Positions 112 to 40,357 of a stretch of DNA of 40,853 bases are shown here, one piece after another. The position numbers and the translations under genes are program-made. The notes under the pieces were generated by a model that saw only the letters and a list, made by a program, of their open reading frames with translations, ran no database searches and was not told where the DNA came from. The stretch covers positions 1-40,853 of the forward strand of contig JBMFRC010000025.1 of assembly GCA_049968235.1 (NCBI GenBank). Direction: 5' to 3'. This DNA is from Candidatus Hydrogenedens sp. (GTDB lineage Bacteria > Hydrogenedentota > Hydrogenedentia > Hydrogenedentales > Hydrogenedentaceae). The first letter of the stretch is position 1. Each line of letters opens with the position of its first letter.

Positions 112-356
112 GCTATTACCTCAATATTTTGCTTATTCTATATCTTTTTATCTTTAATCCCAGTATAAACAAACGATGGGATATAAGATACGTTTGTATA
201 AATATAAAATAGGTAGGAGATTAGGATAAAACAGATAATATTAGGAAAGCAATAAGAGGAAATATAATCTGATGAAAATATTAATTCCTGCACAAATAAT
301 CTATTAGATCGGCAGTTAGTTTAGTGCGATGAGATATGAACTAGGAAGATATATAG

Positions 357-430
357 TGGGCGATACTGGACTTGAACCAGTGGCCTCTGCCGTGTGAAAG
401 CAGCGCTCTAACCAGCTGAGCTAATCGCCC
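357..430 (-). tRNA. tRNA-Val, anticodon CAC
   Basis: Hand-folded minus-strand cloverleaf: acceptor GGGCGAT/ATCGCCC, D-arm GCTC-AGCTGGTTA-GAGC, anticodon stem CTGCT/GGCAG with loop TTCACAC, T-arm ACTGG-TTCAAGT-CCAGT, discriminator A. CCA is not encoded. Confidence 0.8.
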
Positions 431-585
431 GCAGTAGATAATAGCATATCAAAAATAGGCGTTTTTTGCAAGTTCTATGAATTTTAGATAAATTGTAAGT
501 ATTCTGTGATAGTTAATAAGGGGTTATTTGAAAATAAGAATGTATTTTTGTTATTATATGCTTCCAAAATTTTTGATAAATCAGC

Positions 586-663
586 GTCCCCATCGTCTAG
601 CCTGGCCTAGGACATCGCCCTTTCACGGCGGCAACAGGGGTTCAAATCCCCTTGGGGACGCCA
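586..663 (+). tRNA. tRNA-Glu, anticodon TTC, CCA encoded
   Basis: GTCCCCA...TGGGGAC acceptor, anticodon loop CTTTCAC, T-loop TTCAAAT. Near-identical in layout to canonical bacterial tRNA-Glu (GTCCCC...CCCTTTCACGGCGG...GGGGACGCCA). Confidence 0.9.
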
Positions 664-759
664 GTTTTTTTTACATGTATTTACTGTTTTAATGGTGATT
701 GAAAATGGGTATGGATTTGAAAATAGAATTCATTTTTTTATATACTTTGAAATTACAAT

Positions 760-835
760 TGGGGCGTCGCCAAGTTGGTAAGGCACCGGGTTTTGGTCCC
801 GGCATTCGTTGGTTCGAATCCAGCCGCCCCAGCCA
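760..835 (+). tRNA. tRNA-Gln, anticodon TTG, CCA encoded
   Basis: TGGGGCG/CGCCCCA acceptor, D-arm CGCCAAGTTGGTAAGGCA, anticodon stem CCGGG/CCCGG with loop TTTTGGT, T-loop TTCGAAT. Resembles enterobacterial tRNA-Gln(UUG). Confidence 0.85.
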
Positions 836-20329: not shown

Positions 20330-21079
20330 GTGTCTATAACATACCTTACCGTTCAACAGATGCGTGAAGTTGATAGACGCTGTATAGAGGAAATAGGTAT
20401 CCCTGGGGTTGTTCTGATGAACAATGCAGGGAGTGCCGTTTTTAGAGAATTAGAGCCAGGACCTGTAACTATTTTGTGTGGTAAAGGGAATAATGGTGGA
20501 GATGGCTTTGTAGTAGCACGATTGGCACTAACCGCAGGATGGACGGTAAAAGTACTTTTGTTGACAGACCCTTCCCATATACACGGCGATGCAAAAGTTT
20601 TTATGAATGCATATCTACGGTTAGGTGGAAAAATGATTGCCTGTGTAAACGATAATGATGTGCGTAGGGAGATTGATAAATTAACCAGAGATGAAACATG
20701 TGTGGATGCTCTTTTAGGCACAGGGACTAAGGGAGAAGTAACGGGACTTATACGGACCACTATAGAAAGTATAAATAAATTAAGTAATATTGTTTCTGTA
20801 GATTTACCTTCCGGAATGAATGCAGATACAGGAGAAATTTGCGGTGTTTGTGTCCATGCCCGGAAAACGATAACTTTCCAATATCCTAAAATTGGTTTCA
20901 AGAATCCTTCCGCAAAGGAATATCTCGGAGAATTAATTGTAGCGGACATAGGTATTCCACCTGTTTGTGCTGATGATAATCTATGGTTTGAACTAACACA
21001 AAGAACCAGCAAATTTAGTAACTCAAACAGGTTAGGCTTCTCTGGCAATATTAACAGGTCGGATAAACCAGAAGGGTAA
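20330..21079 (+). CDS. NAD(P)H-hydrate epimerase (YjeF N-terminal domain only)
   Basis: LCGKGNNGGDGFVVAR signature of the YjeF-N domain. GTG start with GGAG 8 nt upstream. No fused C-terminal dehydratase domain. Confidence 0.8.
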   Translation: MSITYLTVQQMREVDRRCIEEIGIPGVVLMNNAGSAVFRELEPGPVTILCGKGNNGGDGFVVARLALTAGWTVKVLLLTDPSHIHGDAKVFMNAYLRLGGKMIACVNDNDVRREIDKLTRDETCVDALLGTGTKGEVTGLIRTTIESINKLSNIVSVDLPSGMNADTGEICGVCVHARKTITFQYPKIGFKNPSAKEYLGELIVADIGIPPVCADDNLWFELTQRTSKFSNSNRLGFSGNINRSDKPEG

Positions 21080-29119: not shown

Positions 29120-29163
29120 TAGGAATTTTATTTAACATAGAAACTTTTTAGATGGAGGTAACT

Positions 29164-31326
29164 ATGGAGAATTCTCCTTCGATATTTCAGATTATCTTAT
29201 GGGAATTACAAAAATTTGCTAATCAACACGACCTTAGATATCTAATCCCATCGCTCACAATACTTATCCTTATTGGATTGGTGATTTTAAGTCGGAAATG
29301 GGTTATTTCATATTTAGGACCTGCTGTATCGGGAATTACGAGAGGAGTATTGCTCGCATCTTTGTGTATTTGTGCTTTTCTGGCAGTAGGAAATTACATA
29401 GATAGTTTCGGACAATGGAGGTATGGCACTTTTTTTAATGCGTATGAATTTTACCACTATTACTTAGGTTCAAAATATGCGAAAGAGATTGGTTATACGA
29501 GACTTTATGCAGCAAGTCTGATTGCGGATGATGAGACAGACCGAAAGTATTCTAATCCTCAAAATAATATTCGTAATCTTGTGAATGGAACATATATCAC
29601 CGTAGATGATGTATTAAAAAATAAAGAACAATACAAAAGTCGGTTTTCTCCAGAACGCTGGGAGGAATGGTTGAAGGATATTCGATTTTTCAAACGCGAA
29701 TTAACGACAAGCCGTTGGAATAATGTTTTGAGAGATAAAGGGTATAATGCCTCTCCTATCTGGTCGATGCTGGTAGGAGGTTTTCTGAGCAATCCCATTT
29801 CCACGGATAACCGAAATCATATGCTAATTCTGGCTTCATTGGATTTAATTCTTATTGGAATTACAACGTTGGTTGTGCTATATGCCTTTGGTCTTCGTCC
29901 TGCTATGTTCATGCTTATATTAATTGGGACCCATTATATGATGCGATTTTCGCACATGAAAGGGGCTTTTTTAAGAACTGATTTTGCAATGTGTCTTGTG
30001 CTTTCTGCATGTATGATTAAATTAAACCGTTACAAATGGGCGGGAATCTTTACAGCATATTCTGTAATTTCCCGTGTGTTTCCTGCTGTTTTTCTTTTTG
30101 GTCCGGGAACGCGACTGTTTTGGGATTTATGTAAAATGGTAAGGATAGGATATGATGAATTAAAAATTCGTTTCTACGACCGTAAGCAGAGACTATTTAT
30201 TATTGGCGGATTTGCACTTCTGAATTTTATAATTTCGTTTGTGGGTAGTCTCATTCTCAGGAGATTTCCGTCCCGTTTGTTTGAAGGGTTCACAATTCCA
30301 TGGCCTCTTCCGCTATTTATCCATCTTATTTTATTTATTCCTATTATCTTCTTTGGAATGGTATTGCTTTGGGCAGGGCTTTGGGGTTATTTTGCCGGAA
30401 GAATGGAACGAAATTGGATAAATTATTTCATCTCTTTTACAGTAACAATTACAATTCTTTTTGTCGCTTCTTTTGGTTACTATGGAGGGATGTACCAATG
30501 GCGGGATTATGCCGATAAAATAGGACGACATAATCGGGATATTTCACCATGGCGTGTTGGATATAAATATATTTTTATTGCACAATATCCCAAAAATTTA
30601 GACCTGAAACAATCATTAAAAGATATATCCGGAATTATAGGTAACGCCTTATTAGGCAGACCTATAACAGCCCCTACACCATCCGTTACAACCAATAATC
30701 AGCAGACACCACTAACCAGGAATCCTTCCGCTCCTAAGCCTGTTGTTAAAACCACTACAAATGAACCACTAACCTTTGCTTCAGCAATGAGGAAGGTAAT
30801 ATCCCCATGGAAACCTTTTACGCGAAGTATTATTTATACGGAACAAGCACGAAGGTGGTGGACTACAATGGCAATTGTATTGGTTCTGTGTTTAATCGCA
30901 TCGCGACGACTTTCTCCTTATGAAAGTTTTGTGTTCGGTTTTGTCCCATGTTTCTTTTTAGTTTCACCTACTTATTATTATTACATTATGCTGGCAGTGC
31001 CTTTATTGTTTTTCTCTCCTAAGTCGGATTATATACCCCGTGCTATTGCAATTATCTGGTTGTATATCACCGCTATGGCGGGTTATTTCTTCTATACTAT
31101 GTGGGAACAGGAATTCGCCACATACTACTGGTTAGGCTGTATGCTCTTTGTTCTGTGTATTTATATGCTGATTATTGCATTACTGAACAGTTTGCCTCTT
31201 GAATATACGAAACCATGGATAAATAAAATTAAAGGTTATATTTTAGATAGATTTAAGAAAAAGGAAAGTAGCGATAATAAATCACAGATATTAGAGGAAC
31301 ACCAAGTAGGGGATTCAATTCAATAA
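29164..31326 (+). CDS. Large polytopic membrane protein (>=12 predicted TM segments) with internal Pro/Thr-rich linker; family unknown, possibly a GT-C-like glycosyltransferase or polymerase-type transporter
   Basis: Hydrophobic helices throughout. TAPTPSVTTNNQQTPLTRNPSAPKPVVKTTT linker at ~aa 505-535. GGAGGT Shine-Dalgarno precedes ATG 29164. Only 32 nt separate it from the upstream beta-helix gene. Confidence 0.5.
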   Translation: MENSPSIFQIILWELQKFANQHDLRYLIPSLTILILIGLVILSRKWVISYLGPAVSGITRGVLLASLCICAFLAVGNYIDSFGQWRYGTFFNAYEFYHYYLGSKYAKEIGYTRLYAASLIADDETDRKYSNPQNNIRNLVNGTYITVDDVLKNKEQYKSRFSPERWEEWLKDIRFFKRELTTSRWNNVLRDKGYNASPIWSMLVGGFLSNPISTDNRNHMLILASLDLILIGITTLVVLYAFGLRPAMFMLILIGTHYMMRFSHMKGAFLRTDFAMCLVLSACMIKLNRYKWAGIFTAYSVISRVFPAVFLFGPGTRLFWDLCKMVRIGYDELKIRFYDRKQRLFIIGGFALLNFIISFVGSLILRRFPSRLFEGFTIPWPLPLFIHLILFIPIIFFGMVLLWAGLWGYFAGRMERNWINYFISFTVTITILFVASFGYYGGMYQWRDYADKIGRHNRDISPWRVGYKYIFIAQYPKNLDLKQSLKDISGIIGNALLGRPITAPTPSVTTNNQQTPLTRNPSAPKPVVKTTTNEPLTFASAMRKVISPWKPFTRSIIYTEQARRWWTTMAIVLVLCLIASRRLSPYESFVFGFVPCFFLVSPTYYYYIMLAVPLLFFSPKSDYIPRAIAIIWLYITAMAGYFFYTMWEQEFATYYWLGCMLFVLCIYMLIIALLNSLPLEYTKPWINKIKGYILDRFKKKESSDNKSQILEEHQVGDSIQ

Positions 31327-31331
31327 GTACA

Positions 31332-32245
31332 TTATGAACTTTTAGAATATTTGAGTAAAAAATGTCTAAGTGTTTCTTTGAATTTCGGCGAGAGAGGTGC
31401 TGTGATATGGTTTTTTCTTTGTATGATAGTTAGTTGTGATTGTGGTAGGATGTTTTTTAAGTTTTCTGCTCCTTTACATAGTGGATCATTCTCCCCTACA
31501 ATCATACATATAGGGATATGAATCTCTTTTATTTCATCTTTACCGACCTTGAGTTCAGAGACACCCTTTAATACTCCAATTAATGCTTTGGAGTCATTAA
31601 AAAAATGTGTTAATATTTTTACCCAAAGGAAATGAACAAATCCCAGTTTCCTTCTATTCATATCAAAATGTGTACTTACAGGTTCGATACCTGAACTTTT
31701 TCTAATTTTTTGATGAGCTGATGTATTGATGAAAGGAAGTGGTTTTGGTTGGGCTGTTCCCAACCAGAACCAAGAGAAGATAAGGTAATTACTCGGTCAG
31801 GATAAAGTGTAACTAATTTTATAGCAATAAAACCTCCCAATGAATAACCAGCAATATGTGCTTTGTCTATTTTTAAATAGTCCATTAAGTTGATTATGTC
31901 TTTAACCATTTTTATTCCATATTCGTTTGAACCGTATGGTTTGGAACTAAGTTCATGACCACGGAGGTCAACCGCAATAATACGAAAGTTAATCTTGAGA
32001 TAATCAATTATTCCCGGTTTTCGCCAGTTAAGGTCAGAATTAACAGCAAATCCATGTGTTAAAATTATAGGTTCTCCTTGACCTTCATCTGTGTAGTGAA
32101 TTTTTATACCATCTGAGTTAAAGAAATTTCTTTTGGTTCGGTGTGTAATTTGGTAATAGATTAATAAAGAACAAAAAAAGAAAACAATGAGAACAAAGGT
32201 AAATAAAACAAACAGATAGGAAATTATCTTTTTCCATTTAGGCAT
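31332..32245 (-). pseudogene. Membrane-anchored alpha/beta-fold hydrolase split by a single frameshift (fragments 31676-32245 and 31332-31763)
   Basis: The N-terminal fragment has a TM anchor, HGF oxyanion region and the GYSLGG nucleophile elbow. The C-terminal fragment has the acid (VGENDP) and His (KNHIT) of the catalytic triad. The 88-nt overlap contains T5/T6 runs. Confidence 0.6.
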
Positions 32246-32366: not shown

Positions 32367-35198
32367 TTACGGTTTGGGACAGTAATTATCCTCACCGAGT
32401 CCGGGACAGTAGTAATAACCGCCCGAATTGAAAATTTGAATGAGACGAAGAAGTTCTGACAAATCAAATTTCCAATCTTGGGGTTTGTAATCCGAAGTAT
32501 GGGGGAGACAATCATAATCAATCCCATCCCCGGGAGCATAACCATCTTCAGAATTTGTTTGACAGTGATAACTTCCCAAATTAAACAATTGAATAACACG
32601 GAGCAGTTCACTTAAATCTATGATGCCATCGTTATTTTTATCGGCACTATGATAGGTCCGGATAATTTCTCCCTCTGTGCTTCCTTCTGAAATACCTTCC
32701 CCTTCGAGTCCATCAGGACTGCCATCAGGAGAACCTTCGATTATACCTTCCCCTTCCGGTACCCCCTCACCTTCAGAGTTGCCTTCCGTAATTCCATCAA
32801 CACTTCCTTCTCCTTCGAGTCCTTCAGGACTGCCTTCAGGAGAACCTTCGATTATGCCTTCCCCTTCCGGTACCCCTTCACCTTCAGAGTTACCTTCCGT
32901 AATCCCATCAACACTTCCTTCTCCTTCGAGTCCTTCTGGACTGCCATCAGGAGAACCTTCGATTATGCCTTCCCCTTCCGGTACCCATTCACCTTCAAGA
33001 CCTTCTGTGGTCCCCTCAATACTTCCTTCTGGAGGACAGGGTCCGGTAGATATAATCAGATTAATAGATGTCCCATAAGGAACCTCAATACCTGCGGATG
33101 GTTCCTGACTAATTACACTATTCTCCGGAATTGTATTATCACATGTATATTCAGTCTTCCCGATAGTAAGCCCAATTGATGTAATTTGATTTTCTGCTTC
33201 TGTATAGTTCAATCCTGATACATTTGGGACGATGACTGGACAGTGACCTGATGATACAACTAAATTCACCTGTGTTCCATATGGAACCGATGTGCCGGCT
33301 TGTGGCGATTGGGAGATAACAGAACCGTCCGGCACAGAATTACTGCATAACTCGCTTGTTTGTCCTTGAGTTAAACCCGATGAAGTTATAGTTGATACAG
33401 CCTCTTGCAATATTTTACCTACAACATTGGGAACAGTTACATTGACTGAATTTCCTGATATGGATATATCATCAATGTTCCAGCCTGCATAGGTATCGAT
33501 ATAATCCGTGGGACCCATAACCCAGCGAATGAGTAATAGCGGTTGTCGGTCTGCAATAGCGGAAATATCATAGGTTTTTAGTGACCAAGAATTTTCCTGA
33601 ATTGTCCCCGTGTTATGGTTCCAGATAGTAGTCCATGTAGTTCCATTTGTACTTACATCAATCCGTGCATGGTCATAGGAGGAAGATTCAATACCTAACC
33701 AGCGATAGAAAGATAATACTACGTTCTGAATATTCGAGCAATCAATTGGAACAGAAGTTAGTATTTCTTCGTTCATATCGTTTTCATAAGAGCCATTCAA
33801 GTTATAACCATATACATATTGACCTGTATGTCCAGATGATGGGTCTCCATCGATACCTGCTGGTATGCCAAAAGCCCAATTTCCCGTTTTATCCCAGCCG
33901 GGGTCACTATTCAATAAGAATGAAATGGGGGATAAATAGGCTCTTTTAAGTTTGAGAGTAAAATTCTGAGTATTCTGTGTAACTGTATTTGTTATTGAAA
34001 AAGTTTTGGTGTAGGTTCCAGATTGGGTAGGTCGTTGAGTAACAGTTAATTGAATGATTATATTTTCACCTGGCCTCAAAGTCCCTGATGAAGGATTTAG
34101 AGCAATACCCTCATCAGTGGTAGATGTCCAGTTAATATTATATTCACTGATATTTTCAAGACGAATAGCGATAGATGAAGGGGAAATAAAATTATTAGAA
34201 CTTAGATAGAACAACAAATCCTGTTGAGGTTGTATTAACAATGTATCCGAAGGTGTTCCATATTCAATGTAATCTGCTCCATAACCAATTTGGGACGAAC
34301 CGTAAGCAATGTATCCATAACCATTTTCTCCCCAGTAAGTGCCCCATGAGTTGCGTATAATAAATGAACCTCCGCCATAATTATCATCCCAACCAACAAT
34401 TACAACCATGTGATTAGGTGTTGCTTTCGAGTTCAGATTGTCGTTATATACCCCACCTTTATATGCCAGGAACGATTCCTTTGCTTCCATAGAAGCGACA
34501 ATGGGTCCGTAACGGTATATAGCGGTTTTAAGAGCATCCAGAGAAGGTATGCCTAACATGGGTCCTACATAATGCCAGTCATTGATAGTATAGTAGTGAG
34601 GTTTCGGACAACCACAACTACCTTGATAATCGACATAAGGATAATCCGTTTCAAGAACTGCACCATATCCACCACACGAATCCGTCCTGCTTCCTTTATG
34701 CCAGTCATGAGCAGATATGCCCCCATCACACCCATACCAGAATAAACCTTGTGCACAATCTACTAACCATTGTTCGGATAAATCGACATTAATTCCATCT
34801 TTAATTTTGATTGCACATTCTAATGCCCCAACCGTAGCAAAAGCCCAACAAGAACCACAAGAACCCTGGTCCCGAATAGGAGGTAATCCTCCGGGTATTT
34901 TTTCTCGCCAGTCCCAACGAGAAGGAAGTTTTTCAGTGGAAATAATAGGCTTATCTGCATGAGGTTGTAATTCATCTAAATATTGAGGGTCGGGAGGAAT
35001 ATATCCGGTTAACCGATTCAGACTTCTTTGGGTTGCAGAAGTTTCTCCCACCTCGAATGTCCAGTTATTATTCAAGGCTTCCTGTTTTAACCTCTGAATA
35101 TCTTCCTGAGATAACTGAGCATAAGAGACTGGAACAAGTAGGGACAAAAGAAATAATAAAATCATGCTGTAGATAGGAATATATAATTTTTTCATCAT
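32367..35198 (-). CDS. Secreted multidomain papain-family (C1A) cysteine peptidase: signal/pro-region, C1 catalytic domain, MAM-like beta-sandwich, two PASTA-like domains, acidic GE/SP-rich tandem repeats, and an EF-hand/dockerin-like C-terminus
   Basis: QGSCGSCWAFATVGALE (catalytic Cys), NHMVVIVGWDD (His), NSWGTYWGENGY (Asn). WAFGIPAG...LSFYRW...VSTNGTTWTT...NIDDISI matches a MAM/anchor-J-like domain. Two VPNVVG/VPNVSG...GS(V)ISQ(S/E)P(Q/S)AG...NL(V/I)(V/I)S(S/T)G modules match PASTA. Three 38-aa repeats. DKNNDGIIDLSE is a canonical EF-hand loop, and the LSELLR(V/L)IQ(L/I)FN duplication is dockerin-like. Confidence 0.85.
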   Translation of the reverse strand: MMKKLYIPIYSMILLFLLSLLVPVSYAQLSQEDIQRLKQEALNNNWTFEVGETSATQRSLNRLTGYIPPDPQYLDELQPHADKPIISTEKLPSRWDWREKIPGGLPPIRDQGSCGSCWAFATVGALECAIKIKDGINVDLSEQWLVDCAQGLFWYGCDGGISAHDWHKGSRTDSCGGYGAVLETDYPYVDYQGSCGCPKPHYYTINDWHYVGPMLGIPSLDALKTAIYRYGPIVASMEAKESFLAYKGGVYNDNLNSKATPNHMVVIVGWDDNYGGGSFIIRNSWGTYWGENGYGYIAYGSSQIGYGADYIEYGTPSDTLLIQPQQDLLFYLSSNNFISPSSIAIRLENISEYNINWTSTTDEGIALNPSSGTLRPGENIIIQLTVTQRPTQSGTYTKTFSITNTVTQNTQNFTLKLKRAYLSPISFLLNSDPGWDKTGNWAFGIPAGIDGDPSSGHTGQYVYGYNLNGSYENDMNEEILTSVPIDCSNIQNVVLSFYRWLGIESSSYDHARIDVSTNGTTWTTIWNHNTGTIQENSWSLKTYDISAIADRQPLLLIRWVMGPTDYIDTYAGWNIDDISISGNSVNVTVPNVVGKILQEAVSTITSSGLTQGQTSELCSNSVPDGSVISQSPQAGTSVPYGTQVNLVVSSGHCPVIVPNVSGLNYTEAENQITSIGLTIGKTEYTCDNTIPENSVISQEPSAGIEVPYGTSINLIISTGPCPPEGSIEGTTEGLEGEWVPEGEGIIEGSPDGSPEGLEGEGSVDGITEGNSEGEGVPEGEGIIEGSPEGSPEGLEGEGSVDGITEGNSEGEGVPEGEGIIEGSPDGSPDGLEGEGISEGSTEGEIIRTYHSADKNNDGIIDLSELLRVIQLFNLGSYHCQTNSEDGYAPGDGIDYDCLPHTSDYKPQDWKFDLSELLRLIQIFNSGGYYYCPGLGEDNYCPKP
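32690..33035. repeat. Three near-identical ~114-bp tandem repeats inside the protease gene, encoding the acidic repeat EGEGVPEGEGIIEGSPDGSPEGLEGEGSVDGITEGNS
   Basis: Direct inspection: three units with only a few substitutions. They create the spurious antisense PS-rich ORF 32677-33078. Confidence 0.85.
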
Positions 35199-40267: not shown

Positions 40268-40357
40268 GGAGAGATGTCCGAGTGGCTTAAGGAGCACGCT
40301 TGGAAAGCGTGTGTACGGGAAACCGTACCGAGGGTTCGAATCCCTCTCTCTCCGCCA
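40268..40357 (+). tRNA. tRNA-Ser, anticodon GGA, long variable arm, CCA encoded
   Basis: Acceptor GGAGAGA/TCTCTCC. Anticodon stem CACGC/GCGTG with loop TTGGAAA. Variable-arm hairpin GTACGG-GAAA-CCGTAC. T-arm GAGGG-TTCGAAT-CCCTC. Discriminator G + CCA. Confidence 0.85.

What the first reader, a model, noticed from the sequence alone, without database searches (positions are those of the whole stretch)
32367..35198. Secreted papain-like cysteine protease with an unusual domain architecture (C1A + MAM-like + 2x PASTA + acidic tandem repeats + EF-hand/dockerin-like tail)
The catalytic triad motifs of papain are intact: CGSCWAF, NHMVVIVGW and NSWG. PASTA modules normally occur in penicillin-binding proteins and eukaryote-like Ser/Thr kinases, where they bind peptidoglycan fragments. 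I do not recognise their fusion to a C1 protease as a described architecture. The C-terminal DKNNDGIIDLSE EF-hand loop is duplicated with LSELLR(V/L)IQ(L/I)FN. This looks like a type-I dockerin, which implies anchoring to a cohesin/scaffoldin partner, or Ca-dependent folding. Together these features suggest a cell-wall-targeted or surface-tethered protease, possibly directed at other bacteria's peptidoglycan-associated proteins. The three 38-aa acidic repeats form a flexible linker.
Basis: partly seen in the sequence, partly recalled or inferred. Interest (0 to 1): 0.65.

Follow-up and report, generated by a model that had tools for sequence, protein, structure and literature searches.

The report
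Modular secreted papain protease, dockerin-like tail
This is a real, intact gene for a secreted papain-type protease from an uncultured Hydrogenedens bacterium; most of its add-on domains are known types, and the most interesting part is a calcium-loop tail from a large, uncatalogued domain family that this phylum attaches to dozens of its exported proteins.

Summary
Window 32367..35198 (minus strand) is one 943-aa ORF. It reads: signal peptide, short pro-region, papain-family C1 domain (Pfam 2e-49; Q111/C117/H263/N283 intact), Ig/BACON-like domain, MAM-type jelly-roll, two PASTA domains (1.9e-28), a 3 x 37-aa acidic repeat linker (not 38 aa), and a ~95-aa Cys-containing tail.

The tail belongs to a family with no Pfam or NCBIfam model: 2,999 representative clusters and at least 589 loci in reference genomes, with at least 12-18 copies in single MAGs. 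It is usually C-terminal after an acidic linker, on very diverse exported cargo.

C1+PASTA occurs in only about 13 protein clusters, those named being Hydrogenedentes, annotated generically. The same disulfide-stapled PASTA type also occurs in other tail-bearing proteins, including a GH25 muramidase.

Verdict: a new variant of a known kind (a modular, probably tethered exoprotease), of moderate interest. Peptidoglycan targeting and cohesin-type docking remain inferences.

The parts
32367..35198 (-). Whole gene: 943-aa secreted multidomain C1 peptidase (stop codon at 32367-32369)
   Evidence: ORF list. 100% identical to NCBI MGC8739496.1 'C1 family peptidase [Candidatus Hydrogenedens sp.]' on a contig of 40853 bp, which is this window.
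35118..35198 (-). Signal peptide, aa 1-27 (MMKK, hydrophobic core, VSYA|Q)
   Evidence: Read directly from the sequence, with a hydropathy scan. No SignalP was run. There is no lipobox Cys.
34929..35117 (-). Pro-region, aa 28-90, conserved with the C1 domain across phyla. Presumed inhibitory propeptide; not an I29 match
   Evidence: BLAST domain map: 32-87% identity in most of the 120 homologues. No I29 Pfam hit at E<=1. The alignment to pro-cathepsin H starts inside this region.
34290..34928 (-). Papain-family (C1A) catalytic domain, aa 91-303. Q111, C117 (nt 34848-34850), H263 (34410-34412), N283 (34350-34352)
   Evidence: Pfam PF00112 E=2e-49, 169 bits against a cut-off of 20.7. phmmer against PDB: cathepsin H 1.9e-33, then ficin, DPP1 and cathepsins K/L/S. 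Motif positions. Catalytic columns are nearly invariant in 47 homologues.
33939..34247 (-). Ig-like / BACON-like beta-sandwich, aa ~318-420
   Evidence: Sub-threshold Pfam hits HYDIN_VesB_CFA65-like_Ig (E 0.0018) and BACON_2 (E 0.01). BACON_2 is listed for orthologues and homologues.
33444..33938 (-). MAM-type jelly-roll (choice-of-anchor J / InhA-like MAM), aa 421-585
33036..33443 (-). Two PASTA domains, aa 586-653 and 654-721, each with a conserved Cys pair (C618/C653, C686/C721)
   Evidence: Pfam PF03793 E=1.9e-28, 2 stretches. NCBIfam PknB_PASTA_kin partial match over aa 581-720. The Cys pair is conserved in every unit of all 13 C1+PASTA proteins.
32655..33035 (-). Acidic Gly/Glu-rich linker, aa 722-848. 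Contains 3 x 37-aa tandem repeats (aa 739-849; DNA array 32695-33030). No Lys or Arg
   Evidence: TRF period 111 nt, 3.1 copies, 92% match. Repeat register and composition. Linker length is 128-225 aa among orthologues. A 100%-identical allele lacks exactly one 37-aa unit (P0386).
32370..32654 (-). C-terminal module, aa 849-943: 2 x [Ca-type loop, 13-residue helix LSELLRxIQxFN, beta-hairpin with Cys pair]. Canonical EF loop at aa 853-864 (nt 32607-32642). Cys 879/897 and 931/940
   Evidence: AF2 pLDDT 95.7, pTM 0.86. Best but weak structural neighbours are dockerins. Family of 2,999 representative clusters and at least 589 genome loci. Conservation statistics. Only sub-threshold EF-hand Pfam hits and no PF00404 hit.

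Best explanation
The gene encodes a Sec-exported papain-family endopeptidase, made as a zymogen with a short N-terminal pro-region. The catalytic head is followed by three kinds of ligand-binding or spacer modules: an Ig/BACON-like domain, a MAM-type jelly-roll, and two disulfide-stapled PASTA domains. A long, flexible, strongly acidic repeat linker of variable length then leads to a ~95-aa calcium-loop module.

That terminal module is a general-purpose, autonomously folding tethering domain. Hydrogenedentota put it on dozens of exported proteins per genome. It most likely works like a dockerin, as a Ca2+-stabilised protein-protein (or protein-envelope) attachment module that holds the enzyme on the cell surface or in a multi-protein assembly, while the linker lets the catalytic head reach substrates. 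The MAM-type and PASTA modules most likely target the enzyme to glycan or peptidoglycan-containing particulate substrate such as cell-wall debris, for nutrient acquisition by a saprotrophic organism.

Shown: the domain identities, intact catalytic residues, the fold of the tail, the size of its family, its positions within proteins and its cargo diversity. Inferred: zymogen activation, Ca2+ binding, tethering, and peptidoglycan targeting.
For: C1 domain with all catalytic residues, homologous to cathepsins at E~1e-33. Signal peptide. The core pro+C1+Ig+MAM-like is conserved across phyla.

PASTA x2 at E=1.9e-28. The same PASTA type is fused to a GH25 muramidase plus the same tail (P0333).

Family: 2,999 representative clusters, at least 12-18 copies per MAG, and 86 Pfam families among 61 cargo proteins. 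84% of copies lie within 10 residues of the C-terminus, but N-terminal copies directly follow signal peptides and tandem copies exist. That fits a binding module better than a sorting signal.

Linker: variable length and a copy-number polymorphism fit an unconstrained spacer. Neighbouring genes are glycan-degrading enzymes (GH123, GH42-like, beta-helix), consistent with a degradative lifestyle.
Against: No partner is known. No cohesin is encoded in the 40.8-kb window, and no recurrent neighbouring gene appears in 80 tail loci.

PASTA domains do not all bind peptidoglycan (own knowledge of the PASTA literature), and in other tail-bearing proteins PASTA sits next to non-cell-wall cargo such as LRR, so it may be only a spacer.

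The gene context gives no functional link: the gene is convergent with its conserved neighbour, and the flanks differ on the other side. No biochemical data exist for any member.
Confidence: 0.5

Rival explanations
1. The tail is a C-terminal sorting signal for a dedicated export or attachment pathway, analogous to the T9SS C-terminal domain or PEP-CTERM. It would be recognised and possibly removed during secretion, and would not be a binding module.
For: 84% of complete copies end within 10 residues of the C-terminus. There are dozens per genome on unrelated cargo, preceded by a flexible linker. In C1 homologues of other phyla the same slot can hold a T9SS Por_Secre_tail (P0050).
Against: 13 copies are N-terminal, immediately after a cleavable signal peptide. 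26 are internal, and tandem arrays of 3-4 copies exist. The module is a well-folded, disulfide-containing Ca-loop domain whose nearest structural neighbours are dockerins, not beta-sandwich CTDs. No Por_Secre_tail or other sorting-domain HMM hits this protein.
Confidence: 0.2
2. The enzyme is a self-directed envelope maturation protease, analogous to Clostridioides difficile Cwp84. It would be held on the producer's own peptidoglycan by the PASTA pair and would process the cell's own surface proteins.
For: The architecture is analogous: C1A protease, then a beta-sandwich lectin-like domain, then cell-wall-binding repeats (Cwp84 from own knowledge). The organism makes peptidoglycan (Mur ligase and SLT lytic transglycosylase in the window). 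Membrane-anchored proteins with three tandem tails exist (P0239, P0246), which could mean the tail system operates close to the cytoplasmic membrane. The gene sits at a conserved chromosomal position.
Against: No S-layer or substrate gene is adjacent. PASTA-less paralogues with the same core and tail exist in the same phylum (P0013-P0017). The protease core is shared with many phyla that use quite different anchors (PKD, T9SS, dockerin), which is typical of digestive exoenzymes.
Confidence: 0.15
3. This is the first reader's version: an antagonistic or predatory weapon, docked through a classical cohesin-dockerin pair, that attacks peptidoglycan-associated proteins of other living bacteria.
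For: PASTA modules are fused to a protease, and in a paralogous tail-bearing protein to a GH25 lysozyme. The tail has a dockerin-like core.
Against: The tail is not a PF00404 dockerin. No cohesin is found in the window. No immunity, toxin-delivery or predation genes are nearby. The published genome-based descriptions of the phylum that I found discuss polysaccharide metabolism and not predation.
Confidence: 0.1
4. The accessory modules (Ig, MAM-like, PASTA) are only rigid spacers produced by domain shuffling and have no specific ligand. The architecture would have no targeting meaning.
For: Paralogues replace PASTA with other Ig-like modules (P0013-P0017). PASTA occurs next to unrelated cargo. 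Linker length varies freely.
Against: The PASTA pair and its Cys pairs are conserved at 46-80% identity across 12 orthologues. The MAM-type domain has 19 invariant positions across 47 homologues from several phyla. Its structural neighbours are ligand-binding modules such as CBMs, adhesins and MAM domains.
Confidence: 0.15

Closest known systems
Cwp84 of Clostridioides difficile (surface-anchored C1A protease; from own knowledge, not tested here)
   Same: Signal peptide, propeptide, papain-family catalytic domain, a beta-sandwich lectin-like domain, then repeated cell-wall-binding modules. It is a papain-type enzyme held at the cell envelope.
   Different: Cwp84 uses three CWB2 repeats, not PASTA. 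It has no acidic repeat linker and no Ca-loop tail. It belongs to a monoderm Firmicute and has a defined substrate (the S-layer precursor). No substrate is known here.
Dockerin-bearing C1 peptidases of Zixibacteria, the FCB group and other uncultured phyla (e.g. P0061, P0092, P0104, P0115), and cellulosomal dockerin enzymes
   Same: Homologous pro+C1 core (47-57% identity in C1). A small duplicated Ca-loop+helix module sits at the extreme C-terminus (PF00404 above threshold). Dockerins are the nearest structural neighbours of the tail.
   Different: The tail here fails PF00404. It is ~95 aa rather than ~60. It has a beta-hairpin and a Cys pair after each helix, Glu rather than Asp at loop position 12, and a 13-residue second loop. 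No cohesin partner is known.
Gingipains (Kgp/RgpA) and immune inhibitor A (InhA2): secreted proteases with jelly-roll adhesin or MAM-like modules
   Different: The catalytic classes differ (C25, M6). Gingipains use a T9SS CTD. Neither has PASTA or this tail.
PASTA domains of PknB/PrkC-type Ser/Thr kinases and class B PBPs (PBP2x, SpoVD)
   Same: Clear sequence-family membership (PF03793 E=1.9e-28). The best NCBIfam match is the PASTA region of PknB_PASTA_kin. The units are tandem and extracytoplasmic.
   Different: They are not attached to a kinase or transpeptidase and the protein has no transmembrane helix. Each unit carries a conserved Cys pair. They occur in a secreted hydrolase of a candidate phylum outside the Firmicutes and Actinobacteria, where PASTA is typical (own knowledge). 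Ligand binding is untested.

Membership tests
Peptidase family C1 (papain), subfamily C1A | Match to the family HMM above the curated threshold | tested here: met
   PF00112 169.1 bits against a cut-off of 20.7, E=2e-49, aa 91-303.
Peptidase family C1 (papain), subfamily C1A | Catalytic Cys-His dyad plus Gln (oxyanion hole) and Asn, in papain order and motif context | tested here: met
   Q111, C117 (CGSCWAF), H263 (NHMVVIVGW), N283 (NSWG). They align to the cathepsin H catalytic motifs and are nearly invariant in 47 homologues.
Peptidase family C1 (papain), subfamily C1A | I29-type (ERFNIN) inhibitory propeptide, typical of cathepsin-L-like members though not required for the family | tested here: not met
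   No I29 hit at E<=1. A different, short conserved pro-region occupies aa 28-90.
Peptidase family C1 (papain), subfamily C1A | Cysteine-dependent, E-64-sensitive peptidase activity | not testable with these tools
   Requires enzymology.
PASTA domain (PF03793) | Match to the family HMM above the curated threshold, in tandem units of ~65-70 aa | tested here: met
   98.6 bits against a cut-off of 23.2, 2 stretches, E=1.9e-28. PknB_PASTA_kin partial match over aa 581-720 at E=5.9e-27.
PASTA domain (PF03793) | Binding of peptidoglycan fragments or beta-lactams | not testable with these tools
   Only circumstantial: the same PASTA type is fused to a GH25 muramidase in P0333.
MAM / choice-of-anchor J / InhA-like MAM jelly-roll | Direct HMM match on this protein | tested here: not met
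   No MAM, PF20773 or NF038128 hit at E<=1 on the full protein or on the isolated domain.
MAM / choice-of-anchor J / InhA-like MAM jelly-roll | HMM match in clear homologues over the same region (transitive) | tested here: met
   NF038128 scores 31.7 bits against a cut-off of 30 on P0025 aa 437-587, whose mid region is 52% identical. PF20773 matches P0022, P0050, P0048 and P0051 over the homologous region.
MAM / choice-of-anchor J / InhA-like MAM jelly-roll | MAM-type beta-sandwich fold | tested here: met
Dockerin type I (PF00404) | Match to the family HMM | tested here: not met
   No hit at E<=1. The tail profile finds no dockerin among PDB sequences. One other family member (P0239) reaches 21.3 bits against a cut-off of 22.9.
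Dockerin type I (PF00404) | Two ~22-residue repeats, each with a 12-residue Ca-binding loop (DxNxDGxxxxxD) plus a helix, in a ~60-70-aa module | tested here: not met
   Loop 1 is a canonical EF loop but has Glu at position 12. Loop 2 has 13 residues and is non-canonical. The module is ~95 aa, with an added hairpin and Cys pair per repeat.
Dockerin type I (PF00404) | Profile-profile or fold similarity to dockerins | tested here: inconclusive
Dockerin type I (PF00404) | A cohesin partner encoded in the genome | tested here: inconclusive
   No cohesin among the window ORFs of 150 aa or more. Only 40.8 kb of the genome is available, and no recurrent neighbour appears in 80 tail loci.
EF-hand | HMM match above threshold, or a canonical 12-residue loop | tested here: inconclusive
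   EF-hand_1/6/5 score 15-16.5 bits against cut-offs of ~25. By direct reading, loop aa 853-864 (D-K-N-N-D-G-I-I-D-L-S-E) fits positions 1, 3, 5, 8 and 12, and this pattern is 92-100% conserved in the family. Ca2+ binding is untested.
C-terminal sorting domains (T9SS CTD, PEP-CTERM and similar) | HMM match, strictly C-terminal, single copy | tested here: not met
   No such hit. 39 of 243 copies are N-terminal or internal, and tandem arrays exist.

The most novel reading that the evidence does not exclude
The ~95-aa tail is the 'dockerin' of an undescribed, phylum-wide, Ca2+-dependent exoprotein assembly or anchoring system in Hydrogenedentota. It would organise dozens of hydrolases, adhesins and binding proteins per cell. 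The receptor could be an unrecognised cohesin-like fold. Alternatively the interaction could be homotypic (tail-tail) with membrane-anchored proteins that carry three tandem tails (P0239, P0246). The C1-PASTA protease would then be one cargo of a non-cellulosomal 'degradosome' specialised for cell-wall debris.
Probability: 0.3. Interest if true: 0.7.

Novelty: new variant of a known kind. Interest (0 to 1): 0.42.

Why it matters
The protease itself is a plausible but unremarkable digestive exoenzyme. The value lies in what it exposes. A very large domain family (about 3,000 clusters at 50% identity, dozens of copies per genome) has no model in Pfam (2025 copy) or NCBIfam (2026). It marks much of the exported proteome of a candidate phylum that is common in anaerobic digesters and sediments. 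A model for this module would improve annotation of thousands of 'hypothetical' proteins and fragments. It would also allow in-silico definition of the Hydrogenedentota surface or exoproteome, and it gives a concrete handle (a small, confidently modelled, Ca-loop domain) for finding how these uncultured bacteria display enzymes. The PASTA fusions (protease, GH25 lysozyme) offer a test of whether PASTA can act as a substrate-targeting module for hydrolases, outside its usual role in kinases and PBPs.

Tried and rejected
1. A search with the PASTA pair alone in the word-indexed protein database gave only 3 hits from 26 candidates. It said nothing about architecture. I replaced it with a local HMM built from orthologue PASTA units and searched against the tail-bearing proteins.

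2. The tail profile against PDB sequences found nothing meaningful (best E 0.62, GIGANTEA and GTP cyclohydrolase).

3. The promoter/terminator scan around the gene gave fewer sites than the shuffled controls, so it is uninformative.

4. Neighbour mining of 80 tail loci for a recurrent partner or processing gene returned only off-frame ORFs across the repetitive linker DNA, with no candidate.

5. Literature searches returned nothing describing this architecture or the tail. I tried Hydrogenedentes+protease, Hydrogenedent+dockerin, PASTA+papain-like, the motif string ELLRVIQF, and PASTA architectures. One Hydrogenedentota genome paper does not discuss peptidases or secretion.

6. The operon/partner hypothesis is rejected. 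The protease is convergent with its only conserved neighbour, and the other flank differs between orthologous loci.

7. 'Type-I dockerin' membership is rejected on the HMM result and on loop and size criteria. 'Dockerin-like' is kept only as a fold-level analogy.

8. I considered the acidic repeat as a functional Ca-binding or mineral-binding region. Nothing supports this beyond composition, and its length and sequence vary freely, so I treat it as a spacer.
Full report
**1. Observation**

The stated interval is exactly one ORF on the minus strand: 32367..35198, 943 aa, ATG start. It is 100% identical to an NCBI MAG protein, MGC8739496.1, 'C1 family peptidase [Candidatus Hydrogenedens sp.]'. 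That protein's contig length (40,853 bp) equals the window.
- CGSCWAF at aa 114, giving catalytic C117, with Q111 upstream.
- NHMVVIVGW at aa 262, giving H263.
- NSWG at aa 283, giving N283.
- DKNNDGIIDLSE at aa 853.
- LSELLR at aa 862 and 913.

The N-terminus (MMKK, hydrophobic core, VSYA|Q) reads as a standard Sec signal peptide without a lipobox (no dedicated predictor was available).

**2. Domain by domain**

*C1 domain.* Pfam gives Peptidase_C1 over aa 91-303 at E=2e-49. The domain aligns to cathepsin H at 1.9e-33, and to ficin, DPP1 and cathepsins K/L/S, with the catalytic motifs in register.

*PASTA.* Pfam gives two PASTA stretches at E=1.9e-28. NCBIfam matches only the PASTA part of the PknB_PASTA_kin model.

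*Ig-like domain.* Between the C1 domain and PASTA lie two beta domains. Residues ~318-420 give sub-threshold Ig-like hits, HYDIN/VesB-like Ig and BACON_2. BACON_2 is listed for homologues.

*MAM-type domain.* Residues 421-585 get no direct HMM hit, but three lines of evidence identify them:
- In P0025, 52% identical over this region, the same stretch passes NCBIfam choice-of-anchor J (31.7 bits against 30).
- In P0022, P0050, P0048 and P0051 the same stretch matches Pfam InhA-like_MAM.

The 'MAM-like/anchor-J' guess is therefore correct at fold level and by transitive homology.

*Linker.* Tandem Repeats Finder gives a 111-nt period, which is 37 aa and not 38, with 3.1 copies at 92% identity over nt 32695-33030. 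At protein level the three units are aa 739-775, 776-812 and 813-849. The 123 residues from aa 723 to 845 (the linker proper is aa 722-848) are 28% Gly and 26% Glu with no Lys or Arg. Among orthologues the linker is 128-225 aa. Another MAG carries an allele that is 100% identical except for a precise deletion of one 37-aa unit (P0386, 906 aa). This is the behaviour of an unconstrained flexible spacer, although assembly collapse cannot be excluded.

**3. The C-terminal tail**

Pfam gives only sub-threshold EF-hand hits (15-16.5 bits against cut-offs of ~25) and no dockerin hit at E<=1.

*Family size.* Searching with the tail alone returned 114 hits. Almost all are short or partial ORFs from Hydrogenedentes MAGs, always preceded by E/G-rich linker sequence, and at least four come from one MAG. 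An exhaustive profile search of 1.84 billion representatives found 2,999 proteins at E<=1e-3 and 1,300 at E<=1e-30. Among the best 80 alone, single MAGs contributed 18, 16, 12 and 12 loci.

*Position and conservation.* I analysed 243 complete copies in hand.
- 204 end within 10 residues of the C-terminus, 13 are N-terminal and 26 are internal.
- Loop 1 is a canonical EF loop: D 100%, N/D 92%, D/N 95%, I/V 94%, E 100% at positions 1, 3, 5, 8 and 12.
- Loop 2 (D-Y-N-P-Q-D-W-x-I-x-L-S-E) is one residue longer, but its acidic residues are 90-100% conserved.
- Four Cys (81-99%) and two (T/S)EDG(Y/F) motifs (>92%) are also conserved.

*Structure.* The AlphaFold model from 80 sequences is very confident (pLDDT 95.7, pTM 0.86). 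It shows a duplicated loop, 13-residue helix and beta-hairpin.

*Relation to dockerins.*
- No solved structure matches by sequence.
- A profile-profile comparison with ten genuine dockerins taken from C1 homologues gives 58.7% probability over 27 columns, which is one loop plus one helix.
- One family member reaches 21.3 bits on Pfam Dockerin_1 against a cut-off of 22.9.

My reading is that the tail has a dockerin-like core (a duplicated F-hand) elaborated with hairpins and disulfides. It is a separate family and not a type-I dockerin.

*Cargo and placement.*
- Sixty-one tail-bearing proteins carry 86 different Pfam families: surface Ig-like domains, beta-helix, LRR, cadherin, PKD, CHRD, FGE-sulfatase, peptidases M14 and M4, and others.
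- N-terminal copies follow directly after a cleavable signal peptide and precede LRR, sulfatase or FGE-sulfatase cargo.
- P0239 and P0246 are a hydrophobic anchor plus three tandem copies. P0238 has four copies.

This flexibility argues against an obligate C-terminal sorting signal and for a portable binding module. In C1 homologues from other phyla, the same terminal slot holds a true PF00404 dockerin, a T9SS tail or PKD domains.

**4. How unusual is C1+PASTA?**

A BLAST domain map over the 120 best homologues shows three layers:
- The pro+C1+Ig+MAM-like core (~650 aa) is widespread in Phycisphaerae, Planctomycetota, Zixibacteria and others.
- The PASTA pair occurs only in P0001-P0012, plus one unit in P0018.
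- The tail occurs only in P0001-P0018, which are Hydrogenedentes.

Paralogues P0013-P0017 keep the core and the tail but have other Ig-like modules in place of PASTA. C1+PASTA is therefore rare (about 13 clusters at 90% identity) and lineage-specific. The proteins are deposited only under generic names ('C1 family peptidase', 'PASTA domain-containing protein'). I found no paper on the architecture.

Each PASTA unit carries a Cys pair that is conserved in every unit of every orthologue. An HMM built from these units also finds them in other tail-bearing proteins:
- InlB-repeat and LRR proteins (P0298, P0313).
- GLUG/M26-like proteins (P0348, P0299).
- A Calx-beta + GH25 muramidase + PASTA + fn3 + tail protein (P0333).

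PASTA is thus a shuffled accessory module of this secretome. Its fusion to a lysozyme is the only evidence, and it is circumstantial, for a peptidoglycan ligand.

**5. Genomic context**

The window is ordinary chromosome. It encodes PRPP synthetase, L25, Pth, a Mur ligase, an SLT transglycosylase, oxidoreductases, PEPCK, GH123, a deacetylase, a beta-helix protein, a GH42-like enzyme and a PAS histidine kinase. None of the ORFs of 150 aa or more is a cohesin.

In two orthologous loci one flank is conserved: PEPCK, GH123, deacetylase, (beta-helix), then a ~715-aa membrane protein without Pfam hits, which is convergent with the protease. The other flank differs. The gene is probably monocistronic. 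The promoter/terminator scan was uninformative. Mining 80 tail loci for a recurrent neighbour found none.

**6. Mechanism**

Best supported (confidence about 0.5): a Sec-exported papain-type zymogen whose catalytic head is followed by ligand-binding modules and a long acidic spacer. The Ca-loop, dockerin-like module tethers it to the cell surface or to a multi-protein assembly. The probable role is degradation of proteinaceous or cell-wall-associated detritus.

Shown:
- Domain identities and catalytic residues.
- The folds of the mid domain and the tail.
- The size of the tail family, its positions within proteins and its cargo diversity.
- Linker variability.

Inferred:
- Activation of the zymogen.
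- Ca2+ binding.
- Tethering, and the identity of any partner.
- The PASTA ligand.

Rivals: the tail as a sorting signal; a Cwp84-like protease that processes the cell's own surface proteins; an antagonistic weapon using classical cohesin-dockerin docking; and accessory modules that are only spacers. Each is given in its own section with evidence and refutation criteria.

**7. Comparison with known systems, and novelty**

Functionally the protein resembles Cwp84 (C1A + lectin-like domain + wall-binding repeats; own knowledge). It also resembles the dockerin-bearing C1 peptidases of other uncultured phyla, and the gingipain and InhA proteases that carry jelly-roll adhesin modules.

Membership is met for C1 and PASTA. 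It is met for the MAM-type fold by structure and transitive HMM. It is not met for PF00404 dockerin. It is inconclusive for EF-hand at curated thresholds.

The protein is a new variant of a known kind. The tail is the most novel element: a large family with no model in either library searched, and a dockerin-like core.

Interest is moderate at 0.42. A specialist would not be very surprised by a modular exoprotease. The phylum-wide tail does suggest an undescribed surface-display system that could be tested.

Noticed in passing
window 32370-32654 (-), and proteins P0121-P0384, loci L001-L080: The tail is a member of a very large domain family with no Pfam or NCBIfam model (2,999 representative clusters, at least 589 genome loci, at least 12-18 per MAG). 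Many database entries are short 'hypothetical' fragments, probably because the repetitive linker DNA upstream breaks assemblies.
   Followed up: yes
window 32695-33030; P0386 (MGC9054030.1): Another MAG carries a 100%-identical allele that lacks exactly one 37-aa repeat unit (906 vs 943 aa). This is either linker copy-number polymorphism or assembly collapse.
   Followed up: partly
window 31332-32245 (-): An alpha/beta-hydrolase gene (Abhydrolase_1) is split into two overlapping ORFs (31676-32245 and 31332-31763) by a frameshift near 31700. It is either a pseudogene or a MAG sequencing error. The gene is absent from this position in the two orthologous loci examined.
   Followed up: partly
window 29152-31326 (+): A 724-aa polytopic membrane protein has no Pfam hit. 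A ~710-aa counterpart, also without Pfam hits, is conserved next to, and convergent with, the protease gene in orthologous loci L081 and L082. Function unknown.
   Followed up: no
window 32677-33078 (+): A 133-aa Pro/Ser-rich ORF lies antisense to the linker repeats. It is a mechanical by-product of the GAAGG-rich repeat and not a gene. Similar off-frame ORFs dominated the clustering of the tail loci.
   Followed up: yes
P0333 (1616 aa): A Hydrogenedentota protein combines Calx-beta, a GH25 muramidase, PASTA, fn3 and the same tail. This lysozyme-PASTA fusion may be a better test case for PASTA as a substrate-targeting module.
   Followed up: partly
P0239 (356 aa), P0246 (657 aa), P0238 (2552 aa): Some proteins consist of an N-terminal hydrophobic anchor plus three tandem tail modules, or LRR/InlB repeats with four tails. 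They are possible scaffolds or anchors if the module self-associates.
   Followed up: partly
loci L003-L078 (CAYXPO01, CAYYRW01, CAZJTZ01, CAYMLC01, CAZZMK01, CAZLII01): Six MAGs titled 'uncultured Nitrospirales bacterium (binchicken...)' account for 36 of the best 80 tail loci (16 and 12 from the two richest). Either the module is not restricted to the phylum or these record titles are mis-assigned. Not verified.
   Followed up: no
P0019, P0020 C-termini: More distant C1 homologues end in a different short tail, HPADTNxDxxxxxSEAxxYxxxWxxG. It also starts with an acidic linker and a Ca-loop-like motif, and could be a second related C-terminal module family.
   Followed up: no
window 356-835 and 40268-40357: A tRNA cluster (Val-CAC on the minus strand, Glu-TTC and Gln-TTG on the plus strand) lies at the window start, and a tRNA-Ser(GGA) near the end. 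GC skew changes sign around 31-32 kb, coinciding with the switch from plus-strand to minus-strand genes.
   Followed up: no
window 20353-21048 (-): A 231-aa ORF lies entirely antisense to the YjeF_N gene (20330-21079, +). It is most likely spurious.
   Followed up: no
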